41,483 nt of DNA. Source: a virus (lineage: Duplodnaviria; Heunggongvirae; Uroviricota; Caudoviricetes). A program made the translations under genes and the position numbers. The notes under the pieces are model-generated. The model searched no databases and had not been told where the DNA came from. It saw only the letters and a program-made list of their open reading frames with translations. Within the stretch, counting starts at the first letter, position 1. Every line of letters begins with the position of its first letter. This document shows, piece after piece, positions 1,290-28,728 of the stretch. The stretch covers positions 1 through 41,483 of the IMG/VR virus record IMGVR_UViG_2565956725_000003; one strand, written 5' to 3'.

Positions 1290-1772
1290 CTATCTGGTCA
1301 GGGTGTCGTACTGTTTTTCGCAGACTCTTCCGGCTTCGGCTGCCCGGTCAGCATACTCTGCCAGTTGTCTATTTCTCTCGAGAGATTTGCTGAACACGTC
1401 GGCAAGCAAAACTCCGGTGTCTGCGGCTGACGACCCAGCGCCGACAATGGCGTTATAGTGCCTGAGCTGCTCACGGATGGCAACGAGCTGTTGCTGCAAC
1501 CGGCCAGCGCGAGCGGCAGCATCAAGAGCATCATTGCGCGCCTGGTCGATCCTCTGCTGCGCTTCACGTTCATTGATCGATTTCTCCTGTTCGTAGTGCT
1601 GACGAATTCTCTCATCTTCGGTTTTGCGGTCTTCTTTCGCCTGTGCATACCCAGCGTCGTACTGACGACTGCCGTGCACATTCCAGGCAACAACTCCTGA
1701 TATGACCAGAACAGCAAGCACCGCCATGATAATCAACTGTTTACGGTATGCTTTTACGAATGACCAGATCAT
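1290..1772 (-). CDS. i-spanin (Rz-like)
   Basis: 160 aa with N-terminal TM helix then Q/R/E-rich coiled coil; last gene of the lysis cassette, start overlaps the endolysin stop. Confidence 0.8.
1298..1534 (-). CDS. o-spanin (Rz1-like lipoprotein) embedded in Rz in the +1 frame
   Basis: Internal ATG-ATG start gives [13 protein letters not shown] (lipobox LAGC) followed by a Ser/Pro-rich mature peptide, entirely inside the Rz ORF. Confidence 0.65.
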   Translation of the reverse strand: MMLLMLPLALAGCSNSSLPSVSSSGTITPLSALGRQPQTPEFCLPTCSANLSREIDNWQSMLTGQPKPEESAKNSTTP

Positions 1773-2398
1773 ACAGCCAGCACCTTACTGGCAGTGACGT
1801 ACCGCGCGCGCCGGTCGTCGATGCCATTCCTGCCACCATTGATAATCAGAGTTACACGTGCAATATCGCCGGTATACTTCATGCAACCTTTGCTGGAGAA
1901 GAACCACGCCGCGCTACGAGCCGCGTATTCGTCCTGCGCCAACAGTTCAGGATTCTCCAGCAGGTCCACTTTCAGGCCGTTTCCGCAATCACGATAGTTA
2001 TTCAAACCGGTAATCTGGATAAGTCCGCGGCCACGGTAATTCCAGCCATCGCCGGGGGCATTGTTCCCCATGCGTTTGCTGTACACCAGATTGGCAATCG
2101 CTCGCTGGCGCTCGAGTGGCAATGGTGGTTCACCAGCATGGCGACCCAGTGCATTAGCCTGCCCCTGAGTGAGACGCCCAGCCCGAACGAAGTTAGCCAG
2201 TCCGCTGACACTGTAGTTGAAATTCTCCTGCAACCTGGTGAAGCCCCCAGACTCATGCCCGACTTGAGCAATAAACATTGCCTGATCTTCTGCTTTGCTG
2301 ATACCAAACTCTTTCATCGCAGAAGTTATATGCGAGAACCAGCGTGCGGCCAGCGCCTCGCTAATACCAGCAGCTCGCTGGAATTGTTTAATCTCCAT
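1769..2398 (-). CDS. endolysin, glycoside hydrolase family 19
   Basis: Start MEIKQFQ with RBS GAGGT; motifs VGHESGGF and [16 protein letters not shown] typical of GH19 lysozymes. The ORF-track start at 2629 is rejected because it runs through the holin gene. Confidence 0.8.
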
Positions 2399-2696
2399 GT
2401 TTAGACCTCGATATTTTGAAAATCTGAACAACGTTACCGCGTGTTTTAATAACCGCGGCAAGCATGACAGCGTTGATAATGACCTCAGATAAATCCACAG
2501 CCATTGGCGTGCGTAACCAGATTGCATAGACGACACGAACAGGAATACTGGCCGCAGCAACAATAAGGAAATAAGCAAGCCACCCTCCCCATCTTCGATG
2601 TTGAGAGCCGTTACGCCGGAATGTGACAACGCGAATTGCTATGCCAGTACAAATAACTGCATTGGTGATAAGCAAAAAAAACTCATGCGTTACCAT
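2388..2696 (-). CDS. putative holin
   Basis: 102 aa with about three TM segments and a charged C-terminus (KISRSKHGD); RBS GGGGAG; immediately upstream of and overlapping the endolysin start. Confidence 0.55.
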
Positions 2697-3096
2697 CGTC
2701 TTTTCTCCCCGGAATTAAATCGCGTGGATTGTCTGAACGGTGGTAGAGCCATATACCAATACGCACAGCGACAATTGCTGACACGAATGCGCCAGCAGAG
2801 AAAACAATCCCTTTTTCAAAAGAGTCCTGCGTGATGGTAGGGATCAGGCTGGCTATGCCGATAAGAATTGATGCTGCTGGTTTGTAGAAAAGAAGTCCAC
2901 AGAGAAAGCTAAGCATCGATAAGAGTACGCGACGATGAATTGGGTACTCTACCGCAGAGGTAACAAAAATTACCGCACCAGCAAGAGCACCGAGCGCCAC
3001 CTCTGGCGGAACGCCTACGATAACTGCAGCAAGAGAGCTCACACTAAGCCATTGATTTAAAGAATCAGTAGTTAGATGGGCTGACATAATGAACAC
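2683..3096 (-). CDS. small multi-pass membrane protein (second holin/antiholin or other)
   Basis: 137 aa with three to four hydrophobic helices, between tailspike and holin; start ambiguous (GTG at 3096 or ATG at 3087), weak RBS. Confidence 0.4.
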   Translation of the reverse strand: MFIMSAHLTTDSLNQWLSVSSLAAVIVGVPPEVALGALAGAVIFVTSAVEYPIHRRVLLSMLSFLCGLLFYKPAASILIGIASLIPTITQDSFEKGIVFSAGAFVSAIVAVRIGIWLYHRSDNPRDLIPGRKDDGNA

Positions 3097-3316: not shown

Positions 3317-6073
3317 TTAGCTACTTTCAAGCATTGCAAGACGTGATTCTATTTTTTCGATTCTTCTACGCAAATAAGCTGACTCAAGCCATAAACACTG
3401 GTCAGTACGGATACCCCACCTATTTCCAGCCTTGCAAACCAGAGTTCGCTCTTCTGTTTCGTATTCTTCTTCCATCTCAATTTCGACGCCATCCACAACT
3501 TTAGTGATCATCCTTACCGCCATCACTGGCGCGTATTTATCATCCCATTCATCGTAACAGAGAAGGCCAAATCTGGTTCCATCAATCCCATGCGCGAGGA
3601 AAGTGTCTCTCACTTGTTGTGCTATAACACCAAAATGCCAGCGGGCACCATCTCCCTTTTCCCTGACGGCATCAAGCCAGCGAAAAGCTACAATCCTGAT
3701 ATCTCCCCATGCATCCAGAATTGCATCACCTTCATAACCACGAGACATATACAAGCTGAGCTCACTTGTACTAATCGGTTCACTTTTTTCTCTACCATCT
3801 GATGTGTTTATCGAACCGTTCGCAGAATAAACCTGTGCCCATCTAAATGATGGTGCACCAAGAGATTTGCTGTTATCAATAATTGGTGAAAAATTACCTT
3901 TAATGGCAATATTTCCAGAGTCGCCGAATATATTAATAACTGCAGAGTCATCACCATGGTTTTTTACGCTTAAGTTTCTTGATGAAATATTTATATCTTT
4001 GTTATATCCACTAACATTAATCCATCTTTTACCATCAATGTGATACCCGTAAATATTTCCGTCTGATTGTTCGTCAGGTGACTCTCTAAGAACAATAGCA
4101 TCTGCTCCAGACGACCATTGTATTTTTGTATCTGTAGGCCTCCAGTTCTTTATAATGAACGAACCATCAGTAAACTCCGTTTTTATTTGTCTATTGTCTA
4201 CAAATGCGTCTCTTGGTTTAAACTCACTTGTGTTAACGCTGCTCTGAAGATCAGAAGCAAAAAATCTAAGATTTCCTGTATAACCCTGAGTCTCGGTCTG
4301 GTTATACGCAATCATAATTCCATTTTCAAACTCAGATGATGTTATTTTAACATCACGGCAATCACCAAAAATGCAATTTCCTTTATCAAATGTTGTTTGA
4401 GCTTTGAATTTATCAAACCTTAAATTACGAACAGGGAAACCATCAACCTCTAATGCAAAGGATGCAGGAAGGCCAAAGTATTCTGATGGCTTACCTGATG
4501 TATGATCAAGAGTAGTGGCTACTGTATTCTCAAAAACAGTCCCGCTAAAATTATTACCAATTGACGGAAACCTGATTACACTTATTGTACCTTGTATTTC
4601 AGGAGAAATACCAGATAGTGTGATGTTAGCTCCATCAAATGATGCATCTGAATACGTATATACTGATTCACTGCCAGCAATTTTAAACTGTTTAACTGAA
4701 GTTATTCTCATCGACTTTTTATGTTTAAATGTCACTGAGCTTTCAGTATTACTTACAAGATCAATCTGAGGGCTATTCCTTATCGCGATCCCTGACTGGA
4801 CATAAACGTTATTAAAGTGCGTTTTTTCAGGATTTCCCTTCATTGAAAGGCTCCCGTCATTTTCTGTCAGTAGTAGTCCTTTTACCCTCCAATAGCCGAC
4901 AATCTGTACGTTATCAATAACTGAATCACAGCTATCGTATACATGCAACCCTATATCCCAGTCATCACCCAATGAATAAGAATCAGGGTTATTGTATCCT
5001 TCAATACCATTTTTACTTACCATTATTCTCAGGTTGCGTAACTGTGATGCCCTGTTGATACTAACAGCTACGCTCATGGCTTTTGGTGTAGCAGGAGTAA
5101 CACCTACAGAATCTTCATTTGTAAACTCAGTGAACTTACAAGATATCCCTTCAACAATTTTAACTGGTCTTTCATTAGAGATGTTAAAAAAATATTTGTT
5201 TTTTTCTCCATCACCAGTAAATACAAGATGGGTTCCTTTACTCCAACTTTTTAATAATCTTTCAGGCGCTGGTCTATATGTATCCCAATAATCAATGCCA
5301 TCACCAATTAAAGACACTCCAGGAGGCACATCTATGTTCTTAGAAATCATCCATTTACCTGCAGGTATTCTAACGACACTTGCACCAGAATTTATCGCAT
5401 TAATTAACCATTCAGACGCATCAACTTCAAAATTTAATGCAGCATATCTTTGCTCAAACGGAACAAAATCAAGAGCGTTAACGTTATCCCGCATCTTATC
5501 CTGGAACGTTCGGTATACTGCTCCAGAACCATACTGAATAAACCAACCAAAACCACCAACAACTCCGGCGATTGCAGCATCAACATAATTGCGCATTGAT
5601 CGATTATTTACAGCATCCTGCTCAAGTGATGGATCTGCAAGGTTAGAAATTTTGTTTTGCTTTGCATCGTAATATTTTGCAAGCAAAGATGGTTTCATCA
5701 ATGCACGTCTGAACCATCCAAAACATTGCTGGATCAGCATCGTCAGATAGTCAAAGGCATCTTCATGCACCTCGGGGAAAAATTTTCCCTGATTACGAAG
5801 ATCAGTCTCCTGCACCACATCAAGCACACGATCTATCGTAATTCGCCATCCAGCAGCAAGCGGCGACGGAAGAACAACAGAACCGCCACTATAAGTGCCC
5901 GCCCCTGTTACCGTATAACCGGTATCCAGAACCAATTCTGTTACGTTCCCGTTCAGGTCAGACACCTGAACAACCAGGTCGGATTTTTTGAAAATACGGA
6001 AGGTATACGGAAATGATGTCGTAGCTCCGTTACCTGTGTATTCGTTGTGGTCAACTTCGGTTGAGACCGTCAT
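3317..6073 (-). CDS. tailspike/tail fibre with C-terminal intramolecular chaperone (peptidase S74-like)
   Basis: 918 aa; N-terminus resembles the T7 gp17-type adaptor domain; AT-rich central part; C-terminal roughly 150 aa resembles self-cleaving chaperone domains of endosialidase-type fibres; RBS GGAG. Confidence 0.8.
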   Translation of the reverse strand: MTVSTEVDHNEYTGNGATTSFPYTFRIFKKSDLVVQVSDLNGNVTELVLDTGYTVTGAGTYSGGSVVLPSPLAAGWRITIDRVLDVVQETDLRNQGKFFPEVHEDAFDYLTMLIQQCFGWFRRALMKPSLLAKYYDAKQNKISNLADPSLEQDAVNNRSMRNYVDAAIAGVVGGFGWFIQYGSGAVYRTFQDKMRDNVNALDFVPFEQRYAALNFEVDASEWLINAINSGASVVRIPAGKWMISKNIDVPPGVSLIGDGIDYWDTYRPAPERLLKSWSKGTHLVFTGDGEKNKYFFNISNERPVKIVEGISCKFTEFTNEDSVGVTPATPKAMSVAVSINRASQLRNLRIMVSKNGIEGYNNPDSYSLGDDWDIGLHVYDSCDSVIDNVQIVGYWRVKGLLLTENDGSLSMKGNPEKTHFNNVYVQSGIAIRNSPQIDLVSNTESSVTFKHKKSMRITSVKQFKIAGSESVYTYSDASFDGANITLSGISPEIQGTISVIRFPSIGNNFSGTVFENTVATTLDHTSGKPSEYFGLPASFALEVDGFPVRNLRFDKFKAQTTFDKGNCIFGDCRDVKITSSEFENGIMIAYNQTETQGYTGNLRFFASDLQSSVNTSEFKPRDAFVDNRQIKTEFTDGSFIIKNWRPTDTKIQWSSGADAIVLRESPDEQSDGNIYGYHIDGKRWINVSGYNKDINISSRNLSVKNHGDDSAVINIFGDSGNIAIKGNFSPIIDNSKSLGAPSFRWAQVYSANGSINTSDGREKSEPISTSELSLYMSRGYEGDAILDAWGDIRIVAFRWLDAVREKGDGARWHFGVIAQQVRDTFLAHGIDGTRFGLLCYDEWDDKYAPVMAVRMITKVVDGVEIEMEEEYETEERTLVCKAGNRWGIRTDQCLWLESAYLRRRIEKIESRLAMLESS

Positions 6074-6268: not shown

Positions 6269-6526
6269 ATGCAGCAGTATCACTATCCACTGGAAGACGG
6301 ATTTACCGAAAGGATTCACACGCCGGGAGGCGTCAGGTCACTGGTGGAGGGATCGCACTTGATGAAATTACTCCGGGATCTCGATAAGGATGGATTTAAT
6401 GTCGATGGCCCACTTGCCGAACTGACTGCACTGATTAACTACGTCACCAGCTCACAGATGTCTATGCAGGATCTGCAAACACATCTCGACTATTGTGCCG
6501 AACAATTACGAAAGCAAACCAGATAA
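6269..6526 (+). CDS. small SOS-controlled protein, paralogue of the Bro protein C-terminal domain (candidate antirepressor)
   Basis: 85 aa, RBS GGAG; aligns with the last ~65 aa of the 6840..7532 product (shared IH-P-GV, LM-LL, DG-V-G, AELT, QTH-Y). Confidence 0.7.
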   Translation: MQQYHYPLEDGFTERIHTPGGVRSLVEGSHLMKLLRDLDKDGFNVDGPLAELTALINYVTSSQMSMQDLQTHLDYCAEQLRKQTR

Positions 6527-6686: not shown

Positions 6687-6839
6687 TGTGTAAAGCGCAC
6701 CTATTCTATGGTGGGCTGTGTGGGGGCACCGAAAGGTGCGCCGGGTTCCTTTGTAGCCGGTAAGACCAACTCTGCACAGTTCACCACCATCTGATTGGTC
6801 TCAGCGGTGGTGATTAACCTAACTACAAAGGTGATCGCC

Positions 6840-7532
6840 ATGAATACCAAACCTTCCATCTTTTCCTTTGAGTCATCCTGCCAGATCCGTATGTTCATGA
6901 TTGACGGAGAACCTTGGTTTGTCACCAAAGATGTGTGCAATGCTTTGAATATTGATGTTACACAAGCGAGAAAACTTGATAAAAAAGGCTGGAACAAAAA
7001 GGGGCTGTATTCAATACAGACCCCTGGTGGAATACAAGAACTATCCATCGTTTCAGAATCAGGTCTCTACATCCTTATTCTGCGTTGCAAAGAGGCAATG
7101 ACAGAGGGAACGAGAGCATTCAGATTTCTTGAATGGGTTACAGGTGAGGTTCTTCCTCAGATCCGCCGCACCGGAAGTTACATTAAAAACTCGCTCCCGC
7201 AGGAAGAACGCATAAAGATGGTTGCCGACCAGGTAGCCAACGCCACGGCGTCAGCAGTAATGCAGGCGATGAAGATAGAGAACAAAACCTACAGTGCCCC
7301 GCTGAAGCCCGGCTACCGCAGCCTGATTCACTCGCCGTCTGGTGTTCTCGGCCTGACGGAGAACTCACTGCTGATGAATCTGCTGAACCAGTTACAGGAA
7401 GACGGGCACGACGTATCGGGCGCGGCGGCGGAACTGACCACCATGTTCTGCTACATCGTCGGTGTGAGTAAATGCCTGCGTGATATCCAGACCCACGCGG
7501 AATACATCAACGACAAGGCAGGGGTCTTCTGA
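6840..7532 (+). CDS. Bro-N domain protein (antirepressor-like)
   Basis: N-terminal Bro-N signature (FSFESSCQIRMFMIDGEPWFVTKDVCNALNI ... GLYILILRC ... FLEWVTGEVLPQIRRTGSY); start at ATG 6840 with RBS AAAGGTGA. Confidence 0.85.
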   Translation: MNTKPSIFSFESSCQIRMFMIDGEPWFVTKDVCNALNIDVTQARKLDKKGWNKKGLYSIQTPGGIQELSIVSESGLYILILRCKEAMTEGTRAFRFLEWVTGEVLPQIRRTGSYIKNSLPQEERIKMVADQVANATASAVMQAMKIENKTYSAPLKPGYRSLIHSPSGVLGLTENSLLMNLLNQLQEDGHDVSGAAAELTTMFCYIVGVSKCLRDIQTHAEYINDKAGVF

Positions 7533-8410: not shown

Positions 8411-8572
8411 ATGAAAAAAGCATTTGCTGCACTGTTCGTTTTGTTGTCTCTGGTAGCTTCAACTCAGGCCTTTGCCGGTCGTTGTCAGCACGACAGCGAC
8501 ACTGCTGCTGACGGCTCCCGCTGCGGTGGGCGTTCTGCGGATTCCCGCCCGGGTGGCGGTGGCATTCGTTAA
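8411..8572 (+). CDS. small secreted Gly-rich two-cysteine peptide
   Basis: 53 aa from internal ATG: signal peptide MKKAFAALFVLLSLVASTQAFA then a 31-aa mature peptide with two Cys. ATG at 8339 rejected (abuts terminator, no RBS). Confidence 0.45.
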   Translation: MKKAFAALFVLLSLVASTQAFAGRCQHDSDTAADGSRCGGRSADSRPGGGGIR

Positions 8573-8594
8573 AAACAAGGCCGCGAAAGCGGCC
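8571..8594 (-). terminator. terminator for the minus-strand late operon, possibly bidirectional
   Basis: GGCCGC-GAAA-GCGGCC hairpin; on the minus strand it is followed by TTGTTTTT. Confidence 0.6.
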
Positions 8595-8603
8595 TGTGAC
8601 ATG

Positions 8604-8984
8604 TCACGCAACGCAATTATTACCGCGCCATGTAACATTTTTAATAATCTTATCAGCACCAAACTCAACGTAAACAGAGCAACTGAAATGGAGTGTATAA
8701 CCGCCATCAGTTGTTGCGTATGTGTTTGAATATATAGTATTACCAATTAGATTAGACGTAGTATTATACGTTGTGGTTTGTGGTACGTTATAACTACCAG
8801 AGCTTGAGTAAACATACACTCTGTTTCCATCTGGAGATGTAAGCTCTCCCTGAGGATACCCCCACTGCTGAACCATTGCGTCTATACTCTGCCCGCGCCA
8901 CGTAAGCATATTTCTTTCAAACTGTGCAGCTGACTGGCATCCAACGAGAAGCATAAATCCAAAAATCAAAAATACTTTTCTCAT
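8604..8984 (-). CDS. prophage lipoprotein (moron, possible superinfection exclusion)
   Basis: 126 aa from ATG 8984 with RBS AGGGG; signal peptide MRKVFLIFGFMLLVGC (lipobox LVGC); Thr/Asn/Tyr-rich mature part. Confidence 0.6.
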   Translation of the reverse strand: MRKVFLIFGFMLLVGCQSAAQFERNMLTWRGQSIDAMVQQWGYPQGELTSPDGNRVYVYSSSGSYNVPQTTTYNTTSNLIGNTIYSNTYATTDGGYTLHFSCSVYVEFGADKIIKNVTWRGNNCVA

Positions 8985-9069
8985 AATTACCCCTATCATG
9001 GAAAAACAGCACCAATCCACAAATTAACTAGTTATTTTATTATTCTTCCGAACAATACAATTCCGAATA

Positions 9070-9192
9070 CTACAAAGCCGAACCATGCCGCTGCACGCAA
9101 CAGAGATTCCAATTGAAACCCATTTTTATCAAAATGTATGAATAGCATAAAAACGCTGCACATATTAGTACAATAAAAGTTATTTGAACCAT
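9070..9192 (-). CDS. small single-pass membrane peptide (not in ORF track)
   Basis: 41-42 aa MMVQITFIVLICAAFLCYSYILIKMGFNWNLCCVQRHGSAL; strong RBS AAGGAG 5 nt upstream; immediately after the stop of the 824-aa gene. Confidence 0.45.
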   Translation of the reverse strand: MVQITFIVLICAAFLCYSYILIKMGFNWNLCCVQRHGSAL

Positions 9193-9203
9193 CATATCTC
9201 CTT

Positions 9204-11678
9204 TTATTGCGGAGTGACATCCTGTGGTCGCCACCAGTATGTCTGGTTAAACTCTTTCTTCGAACGTTGCTCCATTTTACGCAAATAGCCTGGTGAAAAA
9301 TACTCCTGCATCTGGTTAAAGATCATGTGATCGAGAGCCGCCTTCAAGTACCAGAGATTCGCACCAGGCATCAAACCTTTCCCCAGCTTCACCAGATCAC
9401 CACCAGTCTGCTCACTCTTCCCTTCCACAGCATTTAACGGTATGCCCTGAGCAATCTTCACTACGTCATCAACCAGACCAGCTACCGGGCCAAGCATCGA
9501 CGCCAGCGCGCCGCTTCCGTACCTAGTGTGATCTGACAATAAAAAGTCACCGTAAAGGCCAAGACCACCACCTTTCAGTAGAGCACCAAGCCAGAATTTT
9601 GCGGCATCTTCTCCTGTCATCTCTCGAGGATTACGACCAGACGCAAGGTCGTTAAGTTGCTGCGACAAAGCGCCAAGAATGGTCGTACTGGCAATAAACG
9701 TCGCAATATATGCCGCACGCCCACCAGCAGACGGCATACCCATAGCGCGTGACCAGTGACGCATAACAACCGAGATAGGGAACGATTTAAACAGGAAAAC
9801 ACTTCTCGTTAATTCACCTTTCCATGTTCCACGCTGAATACCAGAACCGGTTATCAGTTGCTCACGTGCTCCCGGTGTAATAACAGCCATATCAACTTCT
9901 TCAGTTACGGCACCGAGCAGTTTACGCATTGCCTCAAATTTCACGCGTTCAGGCTCACCAAGATGTTTAACTGCTGAATCAGAGATACGCATAATGCTTT
10001 CCGGTGTCAGCATCGTATTATTACCGTTCCCCCAGTCCTCCTGTTTCGCCAGCTTCCATACGCTCCAGTCTGTGTCAGTAATCCCTTTGCTTTTCAGGAT
10101 ACGAAAATCAGAGTCATCGAGGCTACGAAGGTCTGGTGTCCGTGACACTACTTCTCCCAGGCTTCCCATCATGGTTACGCCATAGGCGCGCTTGTGCGCA
10201 TCTGACCATGCTGTAAGCCCACTGGCACGCATTACCGCCGTTGCCGCCCAACGAGACACTGACGGCCCCATATTATCCATCGCCCAGCGGTTAACGCTGC
10301 CAAGTAGAGATTCCATCGCCAGACCAGCGCGGCGCGCCCGCGCAAGTTCTGTACGGTTCGTTGGGTCCATAGCTTCAAGCTGGTTGCGGAATAACTGGTT
10401 CATTGGAAGGTTGGTAACCTTCGCAGACAGATACATGGTTCCAAGATCAGAGAACGATGACAGCAACGCGGATCCGAGTCTGCTGGCAACCAGCCAGTTG
10501 CGGATATTGTCAGACCATCGCGCGATGTGCGGATTCGCTACAGGCTGTGTCTTTCCGGAAATAAAGTTGTACAGATTCTCTGTGTTGTTCGCCAGCCGCT
10601 CGACTTTACCGGTTTTACTCGGGTTAGCTGTTGCCGTTTCTGCCTTCACCTGATCAAGAAGAGAGCGGAAAACATGATCGGGGTTTGGGCCATATGTTTC
10701 CACCAGTGCAATATCTTTACTGATACCTTCCAGGTGACCGACCATGATTTCCCATAGAGAGCGATCGCCATAAAGTTGCTGATATTGCAGATAGGAATCT
10801 GCATCTTTGAAATGTATCTGTCGTGATGCATTACCACGGTTAGCACGTGCGCCGGAAATTCGCATTCCGGTATCAGTAAGCTTATTCAGCCCACCAGTAG
10901 CGATCGTGTTATAAGCCTCTCCAAGAAATGCAGACAACTCGGCATCGTTCATCAGTTGTCCATCGGCTCGGGTATAATATTTGCGATCCAGCTTACCTAT
11001 AACATCGCTAACCCATTTATCTTTTGATACCGCCCCAACCTTTTCCATAGAATGATGTTGAGGGATCCCCCAGTTTTCGAGATAGCCAATGTCCCCACCA
11101 GCATCATTAAACCGGCGGCGCAGCAGCTCTGTAACTTCTCTCCACGCCTTAGCACCGTTTCTTGCTTTAGCATTGCCAGTATTTTGCCCTCGCATTTCAT
11201 ATACCAGGTCACGCACGCCAGCTTCATCTTCAAACAGGCCAAAAAAGCGAGGATCAACTGCTTCAAATGCCTCCTGCAATTGACTCAATGCATAATCACG
11301 AGTGGCTTTTGTTCTGGATTCAACAGAGAGGAAATTCGATTTACCGTCTGCATTAAAAGCAATAGTACGGTTAAGAGCGCCAAGTTTCCCATCAGCCCCT
11401 TGATAGCTATTGATAAATTTATCCAATCTCTGACGTGCGGCTATAGTGAGGGCCACACGACGTTTCTTTAATGCCGCTTCTCGCTGTAATTCTTCAGATG
11501 CCAATTGTGCTGCACGATATAGCCGCTCTGATTCGGAAAGTTGTCTCCACGACATCGGGTCATCACGAGCAATGGAGCGCATATTTCGATAAATGCGGTC
11601 TTCAATGTTCTGTATTTCTCGCGCCGTTAACGTGCGCTGCGCCGCCTGCTGGACCGCTTGTATACATTCCTGTCTCAT
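9204..11678 (-). CDS. internal virion / DNA-ejection protein (large)
   Basis: 824 aa, last large gene of the tightly coupled virion operon; assigned by position and size. Confidence 0.55.
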   Translation of the reverse strand: MRQECIQAVQQAAQRTLTAREIQNIEDRIYRNMRSIARDDPMSWRQLSESERLYRAAQLASEELQREAALKKRRVALTIAARQRLDKFINSYQGADGKLGALNRTIAFNADGKSNFLSVESRTKATRDYALSQLQEAFEAVDPRFFGLFEDEAGVRDLVYEMRGQNTGNAKARNGAKAWREVTELLRRRFNDAGGDIGYLENWGIPQHHSMEKVGAVSKDKWVSDVIGKLDRKYYTRADGQLMNDAELSAFLGEAYNTIATGGLNKLTDTGMRISGARANRGNASRQIHFKDADSYLQYQQLYGDRSLWEIMVGHLEGISKDIALVETYGPNPDHVFRSLLDQVKAETATANPSKTGKVERLANNTENLYNFISGKTQPVANPHIARWSDNIRNWLVASRLGSALLSSFSDLGTMYLSAKVTNLPMNQLFRNQLEAMDPTNRTELARARRAGLAMESLLGSVNRWAMDNMGPSVSRWAATAVMRASGLTAWSDAHKRAYGVTMMGSLGEVVSRTPDLRSLDDSDFRILKSKGITDTDWSVWKLAKQEDWGNGNNTMLTPESIMRISDSAVKHLGEPERVKFEAMRKLLGAVTEEVDMAVITPGAREQLITGSGIQRGTWKGELTRSVFLFKSFPISVVMRHWSRAMGMPSAGGRAAYIATFIASTTILGALSQQLNDLASGRNPREMTGEDAAKFWLGALLKGGGLGLYGDFLLSDHTRYGSGALASMLGPVAGLVDDVVKIAQGIPLNAVEGKSEQTGGDLVKLGKGLMPGANLWYLKAALDHMIFNQMQEYFSPGYLRKMEQRSKKEFNQTYWWRPQDVTPQ

Positions 11679-22992: not shown

Positions 22993-23285
22993 TCCTGTTC
23001 ACTGGCCTCTTTGGCCATCTTCAAATACTGTTCAGGGCAATGCGCCATAACGCGCTGAAACAGTTCCAGCGCCAGATTGCGTTGCCCCTCATTAAATGCC
23101 ATTGCCATAGCATCCATCGGAGAGATAGCGGAAAACACCCGGCCTTTCTCCAGCACCGACCAGACAACGCGACGCCCCTGTTCACTGCTCATGACAAAGC
23201 AAATGTCATCAATTTCACGCTGTGCCATGTCACGTTGCTTACGGGCGTTTTCTTCTTTCAGTTGATCGTCTTCGTAATCTGTCAT
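22989..23285 (-). CDS. small head-associated protein, hypothetical
   Basis: 98 aa, translationally coupled between portal and scaffold. Confidence 0.5.
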   Translation of the reverse strand: MTDYEDDQLKEENARKQRDMAQREIDDICFVMSSEQGRRVVWSVLEKGRVFSAISPMDAMAMAFNEGQRNLALELFQRVMAHCPEQYLKMAKEASEQE

Positions 23286-28494: not shown

Positions 28495-28728
28495 TCAAAG
28501 TCCATCAAATTCATCGTAAAAACTCTCGTCAAGATACCCTTCCCATTTACCGCGAATGAAAATTACACCCTCGCCGCAATGGTGATGACTGTCGATAACT
28601 ATATCCCTCCTGGCGCAACCATACTTATGCATGAGAAATTTAACCTCTTTCGGAAAATTTGCTGAGTTATCTCTCATATCTTCAAGGTCGTAGCGTATTT
28701 TTGGCATAACACCTTCGTGACATGTCAC
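28495..28728 (-). CDS. hypothetical protein
   Basis: 77 aa, GTG start overlapping the upstream stop. Confidence 0.45.
   Translation of the reverse strand: MTCHEGVMPKIRYDLEDMRDNSANFPKEVKFLMHKYGCARRDIVIDSHHHCGEGVIFIRGKWEGYLDESFYDEFDGL

What the first reader, a model, noticed from the sequence alone, without database searches (positions are those of the whole stretch)
8604..9192. Unannotated 41-aa membrane peptide plus a lipoprotein at the 3' end of the late operon
Directly after the 824-aa gene stop, a strong AAGGAG RBS precedes a 41-42-aa single-TM peptide missing from the ORF track, followed by a 126-aa lipoprotein (lipobox LVGC) and a terminator. Small envelope proteins appended to a podovirus virion operon beside ejection proteins are plausible superinfection-exclusion factors (comparable in location to P22 sieA).
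Basis: partly seen in the sequence, partly recalled or inferred. Interest (0 to 1): 0.45.

Follow-up and report, generated by a model that had tools for sequence, protein, structure and literature searches.

The report
Phage accessory lipoprotein plus broken membrane-peptide gene
At the end of the DNA-ejection gene block of an epsilon15/phiV10-like E. coli prophage sits a swappable low-GC cassette: a real, conserved outer-membrane lipoprotein gene of unknown function (a candidate blocker of rival phages) and, in front of it, a small ORF that is best read as the frameshifted remnant of a two-helix membrane protein gene.

Summary
All the features exist, on the minus strand. AAGGAG (9203-9198) abuts the stop of the 824-aa virion gene. 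A 41/40-aa hydrophobic ORF follows (9195/9192-9070), then a 126-aa lipoprotein (8984-8604, lipobox LVGC) and a terminator (8595-8578).

The lipoprotein is a real gene. dN/dS is 0.04-0.14. Its family has about 3,700 clusters, no Pfam model and a BamE/OsmE/BLIP-like predicted fold. In diverged epsilon15-like podoviruses it recurs next to or inside the ejection-protein genes.

The 41-aa ORF is probably not an intact gene. The overlapping -1 frame, not the 41-aa frame, matches a conserved 57-aa two-TM family that occupies the same position in sister prophages (hhalign 89.5%, E 2e-6, against 0.3%). So it looks like a frameshifted remnant with its start intact.

The site between the 824-aa gene stop and a conserved palindrome plus terminator is a hot spot. 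Relatives carry five alternative sets of small envelope proteins there. It lies where P22 keeps sieA, but neither ORF is homologous to SieA.

Superinfection exclusion at the ejection step is the best guess. It rests on position and topology only, and no promoter for prophage expression was found. This is a new member of a known kind, of moderate interest.

The parts
9198..9203 (-). Shine-Dalgarno AAGGAG immediately after the TAA stop (9206-9204) of the 824-aa virion gene
   Evidence: Read directly from the sequence. It is one of 12 AAGGAG sites in the window.
9070..9195 (-). Frame-A ORF of 41 aa from ATG 9195 (40 aa from ATG 9192, spacing 5): MMVQITFIVLICAAFLCYSYILIKMGFNWNLCCVQRHGSAL. It has one hydrophobic segment. 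It is interpreted as the intact start plus the first part of TM1 of a disrupted gene, followed by an out-of-frame tail.
   Evidence: It shows no similarity to the 57-aa family (Smith-Waterman score 18, p 0.89; hhalign probability 0.3%). It is unannotated in all relatives.
9032..9148 (-). Frame-B (-1) continuation MLFIHFDKNGFQLESLLRAAAWFGFVVFGIVLFGRIIK. It encodes a loop plus a second TM helix and is homologous to the C-terminal two-thirds of the 57-aa two-TM proteins found at this position in phiv142-3-type prophages. It has no SD of its own.
   Evidence: Smith-Waterman score 58 against 22 +/- 4.3 for shuffles, with 0 of 5000 shuffles reaching it. hhalign probability 89.5%, E 2e-6. The family-invariant D, A, WF, F-V, G and I positions are matched. 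Some sources call it as a 62-aa ORF, P0038.
9149..9170 (-). Interval that holds the frameshift between frames A and B. It includes a T5 run (9153-9149, G_TTT_TTA), the obvious candidate for a 1-nt loss. One metagenomic contig lacks 26 nt here, which re-joins the start to frame B and gives a 44-aa ORF.
   Evidence: The T5 and A5 runs are the same length in the window, in four E. coli genomes that carry a SNP here and in metagenomic contig L078, so this is not a read error; all other copies are at least 99.5% identical over the region.
8604..8984 (-). 126-aa lipoprotein gene. The signal peptide and lipobox L-V-G-C16 occupy 8984-8937. Gln at +2 predicts outer-membrane sorting. The mature domain is about 110 aa with conserved C102 and C124. 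SD AGGGG is at 8994-8990.
8596..8607 (.). Perfect palindrome GTGACATGTCAC overlapping the lipoprotein stop codon. It is conserved as the right boundary of the variable site in relatives.
   Evidence: A second exact copy lies at 28717-28728.
8571..8595 (-). Intrinsic terminator (7-bp stem, 6 GC, tetraloop, T run). It closes the late operon and is shared with the convergent plus-strand 53-aa gene.
   Evidence: It is conserved in phiV10, where it is annotated as a terminator.
9204..11678 (-). Context: the 824-aa virion structural / candidate ejection protein (PhiV10p20 homologue). It is the last of three large internal-virion genes (the others are 862 aa with a transglycosylase-like region, and 600 aa).
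   Evidence: PMC8954989 covers the clustering of ejection-protein genes in podoviruses, Epsilon15 included.

Best explanation
Shown:
- The window is an epsilon15/phiV10-like (Uetakevirus) prophage.
- Positions 8604-9203 on the minus strand form a low-GC accessory cassette. It sits in a recombination hot spot bounded by the stop of the last ejection/internal-virion gene (824 aa) and a conserved palindrome plus terminator.
- Relatives fill the same site with other small envelope proteins.
- The cassette's second gene is intact and under strong purifying selection. It encodes a lipoprotein of a large uncharacterised family with a BamE/OsmE/BLIP-like fold and a conserved Cys pair. This gene recurs beside or inside the ejection-protein module of widely diverged podoviruses.
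- The cassette's first ORF keeps a strong SD and start. It is the frameshifted remnant of a roughly 54-57-aa two-TM hairpin protein gene. What can now be translated is a 41-aa product made of the start of TM1 plus an out-of-frame tail.

Inferred:
- The lipoprotein is made mainly by read-through of the late operon.
- Its periplasmic domain binds a protein partner.
- The most likely role is envelope-level exclusion of incoming related podoviruses at the DNA-ejection step. It would interfere with the trans-periplasmic ejection conduit or its outer-membrane entry point, and it could also protect infected cells or debris from wasting progeny.
- This would be the outer-membrane counterpart, by position and logic, of inner-membrane P22 SieA.
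For: Identity and context:
- The region matches Phi05_1387 B (100%) and ZX5 (99.4%). The flanks match phiV10, SPN1S and phiv142-3.
- The 824-aa gene hits phrog_684 (virion structural protein). The 862-aa gene has an injection-transglycosylase-like region.

Cassette nature:
- GC is 0.33-0.45 in the cassette against 0.5-0.6 in the late genes.
- The cassette is present in 34 of the 316 E. coli genomes that carry the 824-aa gene.
- Alternative contents at the same site are: a 46-aa two-TM ORF (phiV10, SPN1S, L082, L083); a 57-aa two-TM ORF plus a 98-aa multi-TM ORF (L003, L080, L081, L084); an unrelated 137-aa lipoprotein (L085); and the 126-aa lipoprotein alone (L046, L052-L056).

Lipoprotein is real:
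- C16, C102 and C124 are invariant.
- dN/dS is 0.04-0.14.
- The family has 3,748 clusters.

Link to the ejection module (unless stated):
- It lies 8-11 nt after the 824-aa homologue in several lineages.
- It follows a homologue only 28% identical in L047-L051 and in a Klebsiella phage.
- It lies between the 600-aa and 824-aa homologues in the GC-rich phages L060-L062.
- It is at the same site but convergent in Burkholderia phage vB_E332.

Small ORF is a remnant.

sieA-like position: and PMC10883804, which state that sieA lies between genes 16 and 9 and that escape mutations map to ejection proteins gp16 and gp20.

Not a spanin: the phage has its own Rz with an embedded Rz1 at 1290-1772.
Against: - There is no experimental evidence for any function.
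- The lipoprotein has no homology to SieA, to any annotated exclusion protein or to any PADLOC model.
- No sigma-70-like promoter was found upstream of the lipoprotein. Tight apposition to the late gene in relatives argues against classic prophage-expressed exclusion.
- Thousands of chromosomal homologues in unrelated phyla lie among housekeeping genes with no phage context. The family's ancestral role is therefore not anti-phage.
- The BamE-like fold does not point to a specific function.
- The link to the ejection module could simply reflect a permissive insertion site at an operon end.
- At least one relative (L056) carries a frameshifted lipoprotein copy, so the gene is dispensable.
Confidence: 0.45

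Rival explanations
1. Literal reading by the first reader. The 41-aa ORF is an intact, functional single-TM peptide that works together with the lipoprotein as a two-part envelope or exclusion system.
For: - A strong AAGGAG sits 5 nt before ATG 9192, directly after the upstream stop.
- The N-terminal segment is clearly hydrophobic.
- The ORF is identical in most of the 34 E. coli genomes and in the viable phage ZX5.
- The one SNP inside it is synonymous in frame A and non-synonymous in frame B.
- Pairs of a small membrane protein and a larger envelope protein recur at this site.
Against: - The 41-aa frame has no similarity to any homologue, whereas the overlapping -1 frame is homologous to the 57-aa two-TM family.
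- No diverged copies of the 41-aa protein exist among 5.8 billion proteins.
- ORF length alone has p of about 0.07.
- The lipoprotein occurs without any small ORF in most relatives.
- All copies are at least 99.5% identical, so conservation carries no information.
Confidence: 0.15
2. The lipoprotein is a lysogenic-conversion or host-fitness factor. It would contribute to envelope robustness, osmotic or serum resistance, or outer-membrane homeostasis, like lambda Bor or chromosomal OsmE/BamE-like lipoproteins. It would not be an anti-phage function.
For: - The fold is closest to OsmE and BamE.
- The family is mostly chromosomal and spread across phyla in housekeeping neighbourhoods.
- Host strains include extraintestinal pathogens such as APEC O1, IAI39 and CE10.
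- A sister prophage, phiv142-3, has been reported to raise serum resistance through other accessory genes (PMC7724020).
Against: - No promoter for prophage-state expression was detected.
- In phages the gene is glued to, or embedded in, the late ejection-protein operon. That favours expression during lytic growth, when host fitness is irrelevant.
- Only about 11% of the related E. coli prophages carry it.
Confidence: 0.2
3. The lipoprotein serves the phage's own lytic cycle in a way unrelated to exclusion. Examples are an accessory to lysis or envelope remodelling, or a periplasmic partner or neutraliser of the peptidoglycan-degrading ejection protein.
For: - It has a late-operon position with 8-11-nt spacing in relatives.
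- It is embedded between the 600-aa and 824-aa homologues in L060-L062.
- The 862-aa neighbour has a transglycosylase-like region.
- BLIP-like and BamE-like folds include enzyme inhibitors and T6SS immunity proteins.
Against: - The gene is absent from phiV10, SPN1S and most relatives, so it is not required for the cycle.
- Ejection proteins are packaged in the cytoplasm and would not meet a periplasmic lipoprotein in the producing cell.
- The phage has a complete holin-endolysin-Rz/Rz1 set elsewhere.
Confidence: 0.12
4. Programmed -1 ribosomal frameshifting at G_UUU_UUA (9154-9148) produces the full two-TM protein from frames A and B, alongside the 41-aa product.
For: - The heptamer is near-canonical.
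- It lies exactly where frame-B homology begins.
- The arrangement is fixed in all copies.
Against: - No stimulatory structure lies downstream (z -0.04).
- The first position of the heptamer is non-canonical.
- The homologous 57-aa genes are single uninterrupted ORFs.
- One contig 'repairs' the frame by a 26-nt deletion instead.
- All copies are near-identical, so fixation says nothing.
Confidence: 0.05
5. The lipoprotein is the outer-membrane spanin subunit (Rz1-type) of the phage.
For: It is a phage-encoded outer-membrane lipoprotein.
Against: - The lysis cassette lies about 6 kb away and has its own Rz-like i-spanin (phrog_312) with an embedded lipobox ORF (LAGC, proline-rich).
- This protein is a folded 110-aa beta-sheet domain, not a short proline-rich o-spanin.
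- No i-spanin gene is adjacent.
Confidence: 0.01

Closest known systems
P22 SieA (inner-membrane superinfection exclusion protein that blocks the gp16/gp20 ejection conduit)
   Same: The genomic site is the same: between the last ejection-protein gene and the antirepressor region and tailspike (PMC10883804). Both are small envelope proteins and are present in only a subset of related phages.
   Different: There is no sequence similarity. SieA is a multi-TM inner-membrane protein of about 160 aa, transcribed convergently from its own promoter in the prophage. The protein here is an outer-membrane lipoprotein co-oriented with the late operon and has no detected promoter.
T5 Llp and phi80/HK022/N15 Cor (outer-membrane lipoproteins that block the phage receptor FhuA)
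   Same: All are small phage-encoded lipoproteins predicted to sit in the inner leaflet of the outer membrane. All are encoded next to genes for the phage's entry machinery. Llp also protects progeny from debris (PMC9586334).
   Different: No homology was detected. Those proteins act on siphophage receptors. This phage adsorbs through a polysaccharide-specific tailspike, and the gene sits next to ejection proteins rather than next to the receptor-binding protein.
TP-J34 Ltp (lipoprotein that blocks DNA injection by binding the tape measure protein)
   Same: It shows the same logic: a surface- or periplasm-exposed lipoprotein that targets the incoming phage's DNA-delivery proteins rather than the receptor (PMC3952083).
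   Different: It belongs to a Gram-positive siphophage, has a different fold (helix-turn-helix repeats) and is encoded in the lysogeny module.
BamE / OsmE / SmpA_OmlA-fold lipoproteins and BLIP-like inhibitors
   Different: No member of the family reaches the Pfam SmpA_OmlA model. This family has extra strands, a conserved Cys102-Cys124 pair and its own motifs (WGYP, PDGNxVYVY, GNNC).
Conserved 57-aa two-TM ORF of phiv142-3-type prophages (P0186-P0193) and the 46-aa two-TM PhiV10p21 / SPN1S_0020
   Same: They occupy the same position, starting about 10 nt after the 824-aa gene stop. Frame B of the window aligns to the 57-aa family.
   Different: In the window the gene is split between two frames. 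Only the first 15 or so codons are in frame with the start. The 46-aa family shows no detectable similarity.
Lambdoid 'morons' such as lambda bor
   Same: It is a low-GC insert in a late operon, is present or absent among close relatives, ends in a terminator and encodes an outer-membrane lipoprotein.
   Different: No promoter of its own was detected, and there is no homology to Bor/Iss.

Membership tests
Bacterial lipoproteins (Lgt/LspA substrates) | N-terminal signal peptide with a basic n-region and a hydrophobic h-region, followed by a lipobox [LVI][ASTVI][GAS]C | tested here: met
   The sequence starts MRK-VFLIFGFMLLV-G-C16. Cys16 is invariant in 22 and in 40 homologues. LPAM_1 matches weakly.
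Bacterial lipoproteins (Lgt/LspA substrates) | Actual diacylglyceryl modification, signal peptidase II cleavage and outer-membrane sorting | not testable with these tools
   Gln at +2 (not Asp) predicts Lol-dependent outer-membrane sorting by the established +2 rule. This is inference only.
phrog_3716 / uncharacterised 120-140-aa lipoprotein family | Full-length profile match with the conserved WGYP, PDGNxVYVY, C102 and GNNC124 motifs | tested here: met
   phrog_3716 E 5e-64. There are 37 close and 3,748 distant cluster representatives.
P22 SieA-type exclusion proteins | Sequence homology to SieA types A-C, including the FxRYPxEAxxFNK motif | tested here: not met
   hhalign probability 0.2% against P22 SieA. 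The motif is absent from both ORFs.
P22 SieA-type exclusion proteins | Multi-spanning inner-membrane topology | tested here: not met
   The lipoprotein has only a cleavable signal peptide. The small ORF has one hydrophobic segment, or two if the frame is repaired.
P22 SieA-type exclusion proteins | Gene located between the last ejection-protein gene and the tailspike gene | tested here: met
   Searches compared and PMC10883804.
P22 SieA-type exclusion proteins | Expression from the prophage and exclusion of related phages at DNA entry | not testable with these tools
   No promoter-like site was found upstream. There are no expression or plating data.
Llp/Cor receptor-blocking lipoproteins | Homology to Llp or Cor families | tested here: not met
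   There is no annotated Pfam, PHROG, NCBIfam or PADLOC match. The only PHROG hit has unknown function.
Two-component spanin, o-spanin (Rz1) | A short proline-rich lipoprotein encoded within or next to an i-spanin gene in the lysis cassette | tested here: not met
   Rz (phrog_312), with an embedded LAGC lipobox ORF, is at 1290-1772. This protein is a folded beta-sheet domain located about 6 kb away.
BamE / SmpA_OmlA (Pfam PF04355) | Profile match to the family model | tested here: not met
57-aa two-TM small membrane protein family (P0186-P0193) | A single uninterrupted ORF of 57-58 aa with two hydrophobic helices, starting right after the 824-aa gene | tested here: not met
   Homology lies in frame B only (hhalign 89.5%, E 2e-6). 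The start codon is in frame A. Repairing one nucleotide restores a 54-aa protein with two TM helices.
Phage 'moron' (Juhala/Hendrix sense) | Deviant base composition, presence/absence among close relatives, and its own terminator | tested here: met
   GC; polymorphism; terminator.
Phage 'moron' (Juhala/Hendrix sense) | Own promoter that allows expression from the repressed prophage | tested here: inconclusive
   The consensus scan found no convincing site upstream of either ORF or in the Klebsiella phage gap. Such scans are insensitive.

The most novel reading that the evidence does not exclude
The 126-aa protein represents a new class of superinfection-exclusion factor. It would be an outer-membrane-anchored, BamE/BLIP-fold periplasmic lipoprotein that binds a component of the podovirus ejectosome and stops the trans-envelope conduit from forming. 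The target could be the periplasmic tunnel protein or the peptidoglycan-cutting domain of the 862-aa protein, by analogy with T4 Spackle. Its long-standing linkage to ejection-protein genes across Enterobacteria, Burkholderia and GC-rich hosts would then reflect co-evolution of blocker and target. The roughly 3,700-cluster chromosomal family would be the reservoir from which phages recruited it.
Probability: 0.25. Interest if true: 0.65.

Novelty: new member of a known kind. Interest (0 to 1): 0.35.

Why it matters
- How short-tailed phages build their DNA-ejection conduit, and how cells or resident prophages block it, is known for very few systems (P22 SieA is essentially the only one for podoviruses). 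If this lipoprotein blocks ejection from the outer-membrane side, it would give a second, mechanistically distinct handle on the ejectosome.
- It would also assign a first function to a large lipoprotein family that has no Pfam model.
- The prophage is in about 0.6% of complete E. coli genomes, including APEC O1, IAI39 and CE10. It could therefore affect the host range of therapeutic Uetakevirus-like phages.
- If it does not block ejection, the result is still useful. It documents a cassette hot spot with five alternative envelope-protein sets.
- It also shows that an attractive 'unannotated peptide with a perfect RBS' can be a frameshift relic. That is a caution for small-ORF mining.

Tried and rejected
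- Spanin reading: rejected. The phage has its own Rz/Rz1.
- SieA homology: rejected.
- Known defence or exclusion families: no hit in PADLOC, Pfam or NCBIfam.
- PDB sequence search: nothing significant.
- BFVD viral fold search: only uncharacterised proteins and two SmpA/OmlA phage lipoproteins.
- afdb50 fold library: not available.
- Chromosomal gene neighbourhood: 56 neighbouring proteins from 14 diverse loci gave no recurring Pfam partner, so nothing could be inferred by association.
- Sequencing error at the homopolymer runs: rejected. The T5 and A5 runs have the same length in the window, in four E. coli genomes and in contig L078, and all other copies are at least 99.5% identical over the region.
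- Programmed -1 frameshift: no stimulatory structure, so kept only as a low-probability rival.
- Independent translation of frame B: unlikely, because no SD precedes its ATG codons (read).
- Promoter search upstream of the lipoprotein here and in the Klebsiella and Burkholderia relatives: nothing convincing.
- Literature: the ZX5 paper (PMC9782041) and the phiv142-3 paper with its supplement (PMC7724020) say nothing about these genes. Searches for phage or prophage lipoproteins found only Llp, Ltp and Cor-type work.
- Similarity of the small ORF to the 46-aa PhiV10p21 family: none.
Full report
**1. What is in the sequence**

All the features lie on the minus strand.
- The 824-aa gene (11678-9204) ends with TAA at 9206-9204.
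- AAGGAG occupies 9203-9198.
- Two ATG codons follow, at 9195 (spacing 2) and 9192 (spacing 5).
- They open a 41- or 40-aa ORF, MMVQITFIVLICAAFLCYSYILIKMGFNWNLCCVQRHGSAL, which ends at TAG 9072-9070.
- After an 85-nt spacer, AGGGG (8994-8990) precedes ATG 8984 of a 126-aa ORF that ends at TGA 8606-8604.
- The N-terminus of that ORF, MRKVFLIFGFMLLVGC|QS, is a textbook lipoprotein signal with lipobox LVGC.
- A 12-bp palindrome, GTGACATGTCAC (8596-8607), overlaps the stop codon.
- A 7-bp, GC-rich hairpin with a T run follows at 8595-8571. Its folding energy is -21.5 kcal/mol, z -2.96.

**2. Where the window comes from**

- The region is 100% identical to Escherichia phage Phi05_1387 B and 99.4% identical to the temperate podovirus vB_EcoP_ZX5.
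- Its flanks match phiV10, SPN1S, phiv142-3 and other Uetakevirus (epsilon15-like) phages.
- The 824-aa protein is the homologue of PhiV10p20, annotated 'virion structural protein' (phrog_684).
- The two genes upstream are 600 aa (phrog_1145) and 862 aa. The 862-aa protein matches 'tail injection transglycosylase' and endolysin profiles over residues of about 180-590.
- This trio is the internal-virion / ejection-protein block. PMC8954989 describes how ejection-protein genes cluster in podoviruses, Epsilon15 included.
- Downstream, on the other strand, lie five genes: a 53-aa secreted peptide, a 125-aa ORF, a 72-aa ORF, a Bro-N antirepressor and an 85-aa ORF.
- The tailspike follows (3317-6073, with an endosialidase-chaperone domain), then the lysis genes.

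**3. The lipoprotein is a real, conserved gene of unknown function**

Family and selection:
- It matches phrog_3716 (unknown function) at E 5e-64. Nothing matches in Pfam, NCBIfam, PADLOC or PDB sequences.
- The 5.8-billion-protein search found 37 relatives in Escherichia, Klebsiella, Shigella, Salmonella, Enterobacter, Raoultella and Citrobacter. They are 35-99% identical.
- A profile search of 1.84 billion cluster representatives found 3,748 clusters at E <= 1e-3 and 1,100 at E <= 1e-10. Nearly all are 110-150 aa.
- In 40 diverse members, C16 (lipobox), P44, G53, C102, G121 and C124 are invariant. W29, G31, W41, G42, P68 and N122 are nearly so.
- None of the 40 members hits a Pfam domain family.
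- Pairwise dN/dS among phage copies is 0.04-0.14, with saturated dS.

Structure:
- The AlphaFold2 model has pLDDT 83.8. It shows two short helices packed on a six-stranded antiparallel sheet.
- This is a protein-binding scaffold with no specific functional implication.
- Gln at +2 predicts outer-membrane sorting (established +2 rule; inference).
- The conserved Cys pair is consistent with a periplasmic disulfide (inference).

Chromosomal context and the spanin question:
- Chromosomal homologues in Glaciecola, Planctomycetota, Nitrospirota, Campylobacterota, gut Alphaproteobacteria and others sit among unrelated housekeeping genes. No neighbour recurs.
- The protein is not the phage's o-spanin. 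A holin-holin-endolysin-Rz cassette with an embedded Rz1 (lipobox LAGC, proline-rich) lies at 1290-3096.

**4. Phage context of the lipoprotein**

Among 33 IMG/VR loci and the named phages, the gene appears in these settings.

| Setting | Loci |
|---|---|
| 8-11 nt after the stop of an 824-aa homologue, with no intervening ORF (lipoprotein 59-79% identical to ours, 824-aa homologue 85-95%) | L046, L052-L056 |
| After an 824-aa homologue only 28% identical, while the lipoprotein is 79% identical | L047-L051, Klebsiella phage ST11-OXA245phi3.2, Enterobacter L006 |
| In low-GC phages, before a related tailspike N-terminus | L057-L059 |
| Between the 600-aa and 824-aa homologues, same strand | GC-rich phages L060-L062 |
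| At the same site but convergent | Burkholderia phage vB_E332 |
| Other prophage contexts | 6 loci |

The gene has therefore moved horizontally; its similarity does not track that of the 824-aa gene. Even so, it keeps landing at, or inside, the ejection-protein module.

**5. The site is a hot spot for small envelope proteins**

The 824-aa gene occurs in 316 of 5,426 complete E. coli genomes. The cassette described here occurs in 34 of them, all at least 99.5% identical. Carriers include APEC O1, IAI39 and CE10.

Five different contents lie between the conserved '...CCGCAATAA' stop and the conserved 'GTGACATGTCAC + terminator'.

| Variant | Content | Found in |
|---|---|---|
| a | 46-aa two-TM ORF (PhiV10p21, SPN1S_0020, phrog_7892) | phiV10, SPN1S, L082, L083 |
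| b | 57-aa two-TM ORF plus a 98-aa multi-TM protein (phrog_3075); the 57-aa ORF is unannotated in the five records examined | L003, L080, L081, L084 |
| c | Unrelated 137-aa lipoprotein (lipobox LISAC, phrog_8691) | L085 |
| d | This cassette | the window and 34 E. coli genomes |
| e | The 126-aa lipoprotein alone | L046, L052-L056 |

GC drops to 0.33-0.45 across the cassette, against 0.5-0.6 in the late genes.

This is moron-like behaviour. No sigma-70-like promoter was found in front of either ORF, though. Expression by read-through from the late operon is therefore the default inference.

**6. The 41-aa ORF is best explained as a frameshift relic**

Evidence from the overlapping frame:
- The -1 frame (frame B) stays open to 9032. 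It encodes ...MLFIHFDKNGFQLESLLRAAAWFGFVVFGIVLFGRIIK, which is a loop and a second TM helix.
- This reading aligns with the 57-aa two-TM ORF of variant (b). The Smith-Waterman score is 58, against 22 +/- 4.3 for composition-preserving shuffles, and 0 of 5000 shuffles reach it. The 41-aa frame scores 18 (p = 0.89).
- The 57-aa ORF belongs to a real family of 57-58-aa proteins, 74-96% identical, in E. coli, Citrobacter, Salmonella and Enterobacter.
- Against a profile of that family, frame B gives hhalign probability 89.5% and E 2e-6 over 38 columns. Frame A gives 0.3%.
- The family's invariant D18, L24, A30, W33, F34, F36, V38, G40 and I48 are all matched.

Where the break is:
- Homology in frame B begins at or just upstream of a T5 run (9153-9149).
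- Adding one nucleotide there yields a 54-aa protein with two hydrophobic peaks, like the family.
- The homopolymer lengths are the same in the window, in four E. coli genomes that carry a SNP here and in metagenomic contig L078. All other copies are at least 99.5% identical over the region. This is not a sequencing error.

Other observations:
One is the 62-aa frame-B ORF itself. The other is a single 44-aa variant from one metagenomic contig, in which a 26-nt deletion re-joins the intact start to frame B.
- There are two SNPs in the region. One is synonymous in frame A and S-to-P in frame B. The other lies after the frame-A stop and is F-to-L in frame B. They are too few to decide anything.
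- A programmed -1 shift at G_UUU_UUA is conceivable. It lacks a stimulatory structure, however (z -0.04).
- The strong SD and ATG are real, so a 41-aa hydrophobic product may well be translated. Comparative evidence nonetheless says it is a truncated or aberrant product, not a designed single-TM peptide.
- ORF length alone is unremarkable (p about 0.07).

**7. Mechanism**

Shown:
- The gene is intact.
- It carries a lipoprotein signal.
- It is under purifying selection.
- It has a BamE-like fold.
- It is linked to the ejection module.
- It sits in a hot spot.
- It has a terminator.

Inferred: late co-transcription, an outer-membrane anchor with a periplasmic domain, and binding to a protein partner.

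The best-supported functional guess is interference with DNA ejection by incoming related podoviruses. Three points support it:
- Genes for entry-blocking proteins typically sit beside the genes for the phage's own entry machinery. Examples are sieA beside genes 16 and 20, whose products are its targets (PMC10883804), and llp beside the T5 receptor-binding protein gene (PMC9586334).
- The site lies exactly where P22 keeps sieA.
- The alternative occupants are all envelope proteins.

Four points count against it: no homology to any exclusion protein, no promoter for prophage expression, a mainly chromosomal family, and no experiment.

I put about 0.45 on the combined statement. Within it, I put about 0.85 on 'accessory cassette, real lipoprotein, frameshifted small gene' and about 0.35 on 'exclusion at the ejection step'. 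The rivals are a host-fitness factor of the Bor or OsmE type, a non-exclusion late function, and the literal two-protein reading.

**8. Novelty and verdict**

- The kind of thing is well known: accessory envelope proteins in a variable site at the end of a podovirus ejection operon, as candidate exclusion factors.
- This lipoprotein family is uncharacterised. Its repeated association with ejection genes does not appear in the papers I could search.
- The 'unannotated peptide' part of the finding is largely explained away.
- The result is a new member of a known kind, of moderate interest (0.35).
- The most novel reading not excluded is a new outer-membrane-anchored class of ejectosome blocker. 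I give it probability of about 0.25, and interest of about 0.65 if true.

Noticed in passing
window 8411-8572 (+): A convergent 53-aa ORF, MKKAFAALFVLLSLVASTQAFA|GRCQHDSDTAADGSRCGGRSADSRPGGGGIR. It has a signal peptide and a 31-aa Gly/Arg-rich mature peptide with two Cys. It shares the bidirectional terminator with the cassette. It matches phrog_14503 ('membrane associated protein', moron category; E 2e-40) and is annotated as WP_000708858.1 in several other E. coli prophages examined (and as gp43 in TL-2011b). Its function is unknown.
   Followed up: partly
window 8596-8607 and 28717-28728; near-copies at 23222 and 26266: The perfect 12-bp palindrome GTGACATGTCAC occurs exactly twice, against about 0.0025 expected. 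One copy overlaps the lipoprotein stop and forms the conserved right boundary of the variable site; it is also present after the lipoprotein in the Klebsiella phage. The other copy sits at a GTGA stop/start overlap next to a phrog_536 'transcriptional regulator' gene. It could be an operator or a recombination boundary.
   Followed up: partly
L003 4207-4380; L080 and L084 2007-2180: A conserved 57-aa two-TM ORF (GTG start, GGAAG SD) lies directly after the 824-aa gene. It is unannotated in the GenBank record of phiv142-3 and in three RefSeq E. coli genomes examined. Elsewhere it is called as a hypothetical protein (P0186-P0193).
   Followed up: yes
L085 2007-2420 (E. coli rl0044 prophage): A different 137-aa lipoprotein (MKELLLLSVFLISAC..., phrog_8691, unknown function) occupies the same site. 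This is independent recruitment of a lipoprotein to this position.
   Followed up: partly
L078 3001-3135 (ENA metagenome contig BRIT20-1 scaffold_392): A 26-nt deletion relative to the window (about 9170-9145) joins the AAGGAG-ATG start to frame B. The result is a 44-aa ORF. This may be a compensatory 'repair' of the frameshifted small gene, or it may be chance.
   Followed up: yes
L056 6001-6377; L041 1267-5778: Two relatives show decay. In L056 the lipoprotein homologue is split over two frames, a 1-nt indel. In L041 the 824-aa homologue is interrupted by an insertion of about 2 kb between residues 268 and 269.
   Followed up: no
window 6269-6526 (+) and 6795-7532 (+): The 85-aa ORF next to the tailspike resembles the C-terminal third of the neighbouring 245-aa Bro-N antirepressor (both hit phrog_450; about 40% identity). 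This suggests a duplicated or stand-alone antirepressor C-terminal domain. The homologue of this 85-aa ORF is conserved across nearly all the related loci.
   Followed up: no
window 3317-6073 (-): The 918-aa tailspike has a conserved N-terminal 165-200 aa and a swappable C-terminal part that ends in an endosialidase-type intramolecular chaperone (Peptidase_S74, E 3e-10). In strain CE10 the same prophage backbone carries an endosialidase (K1-specific) tailspike instead.
   Followed up: no
L059 5683-5982: In a low-GC relative, a 99-aa ORF with two predicted TM helices lies directly upstream of the lipoprotein homologue. This echoes the 'small membrane protein plus lipoprotein' pairing seen in the window.
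   Followed up: no
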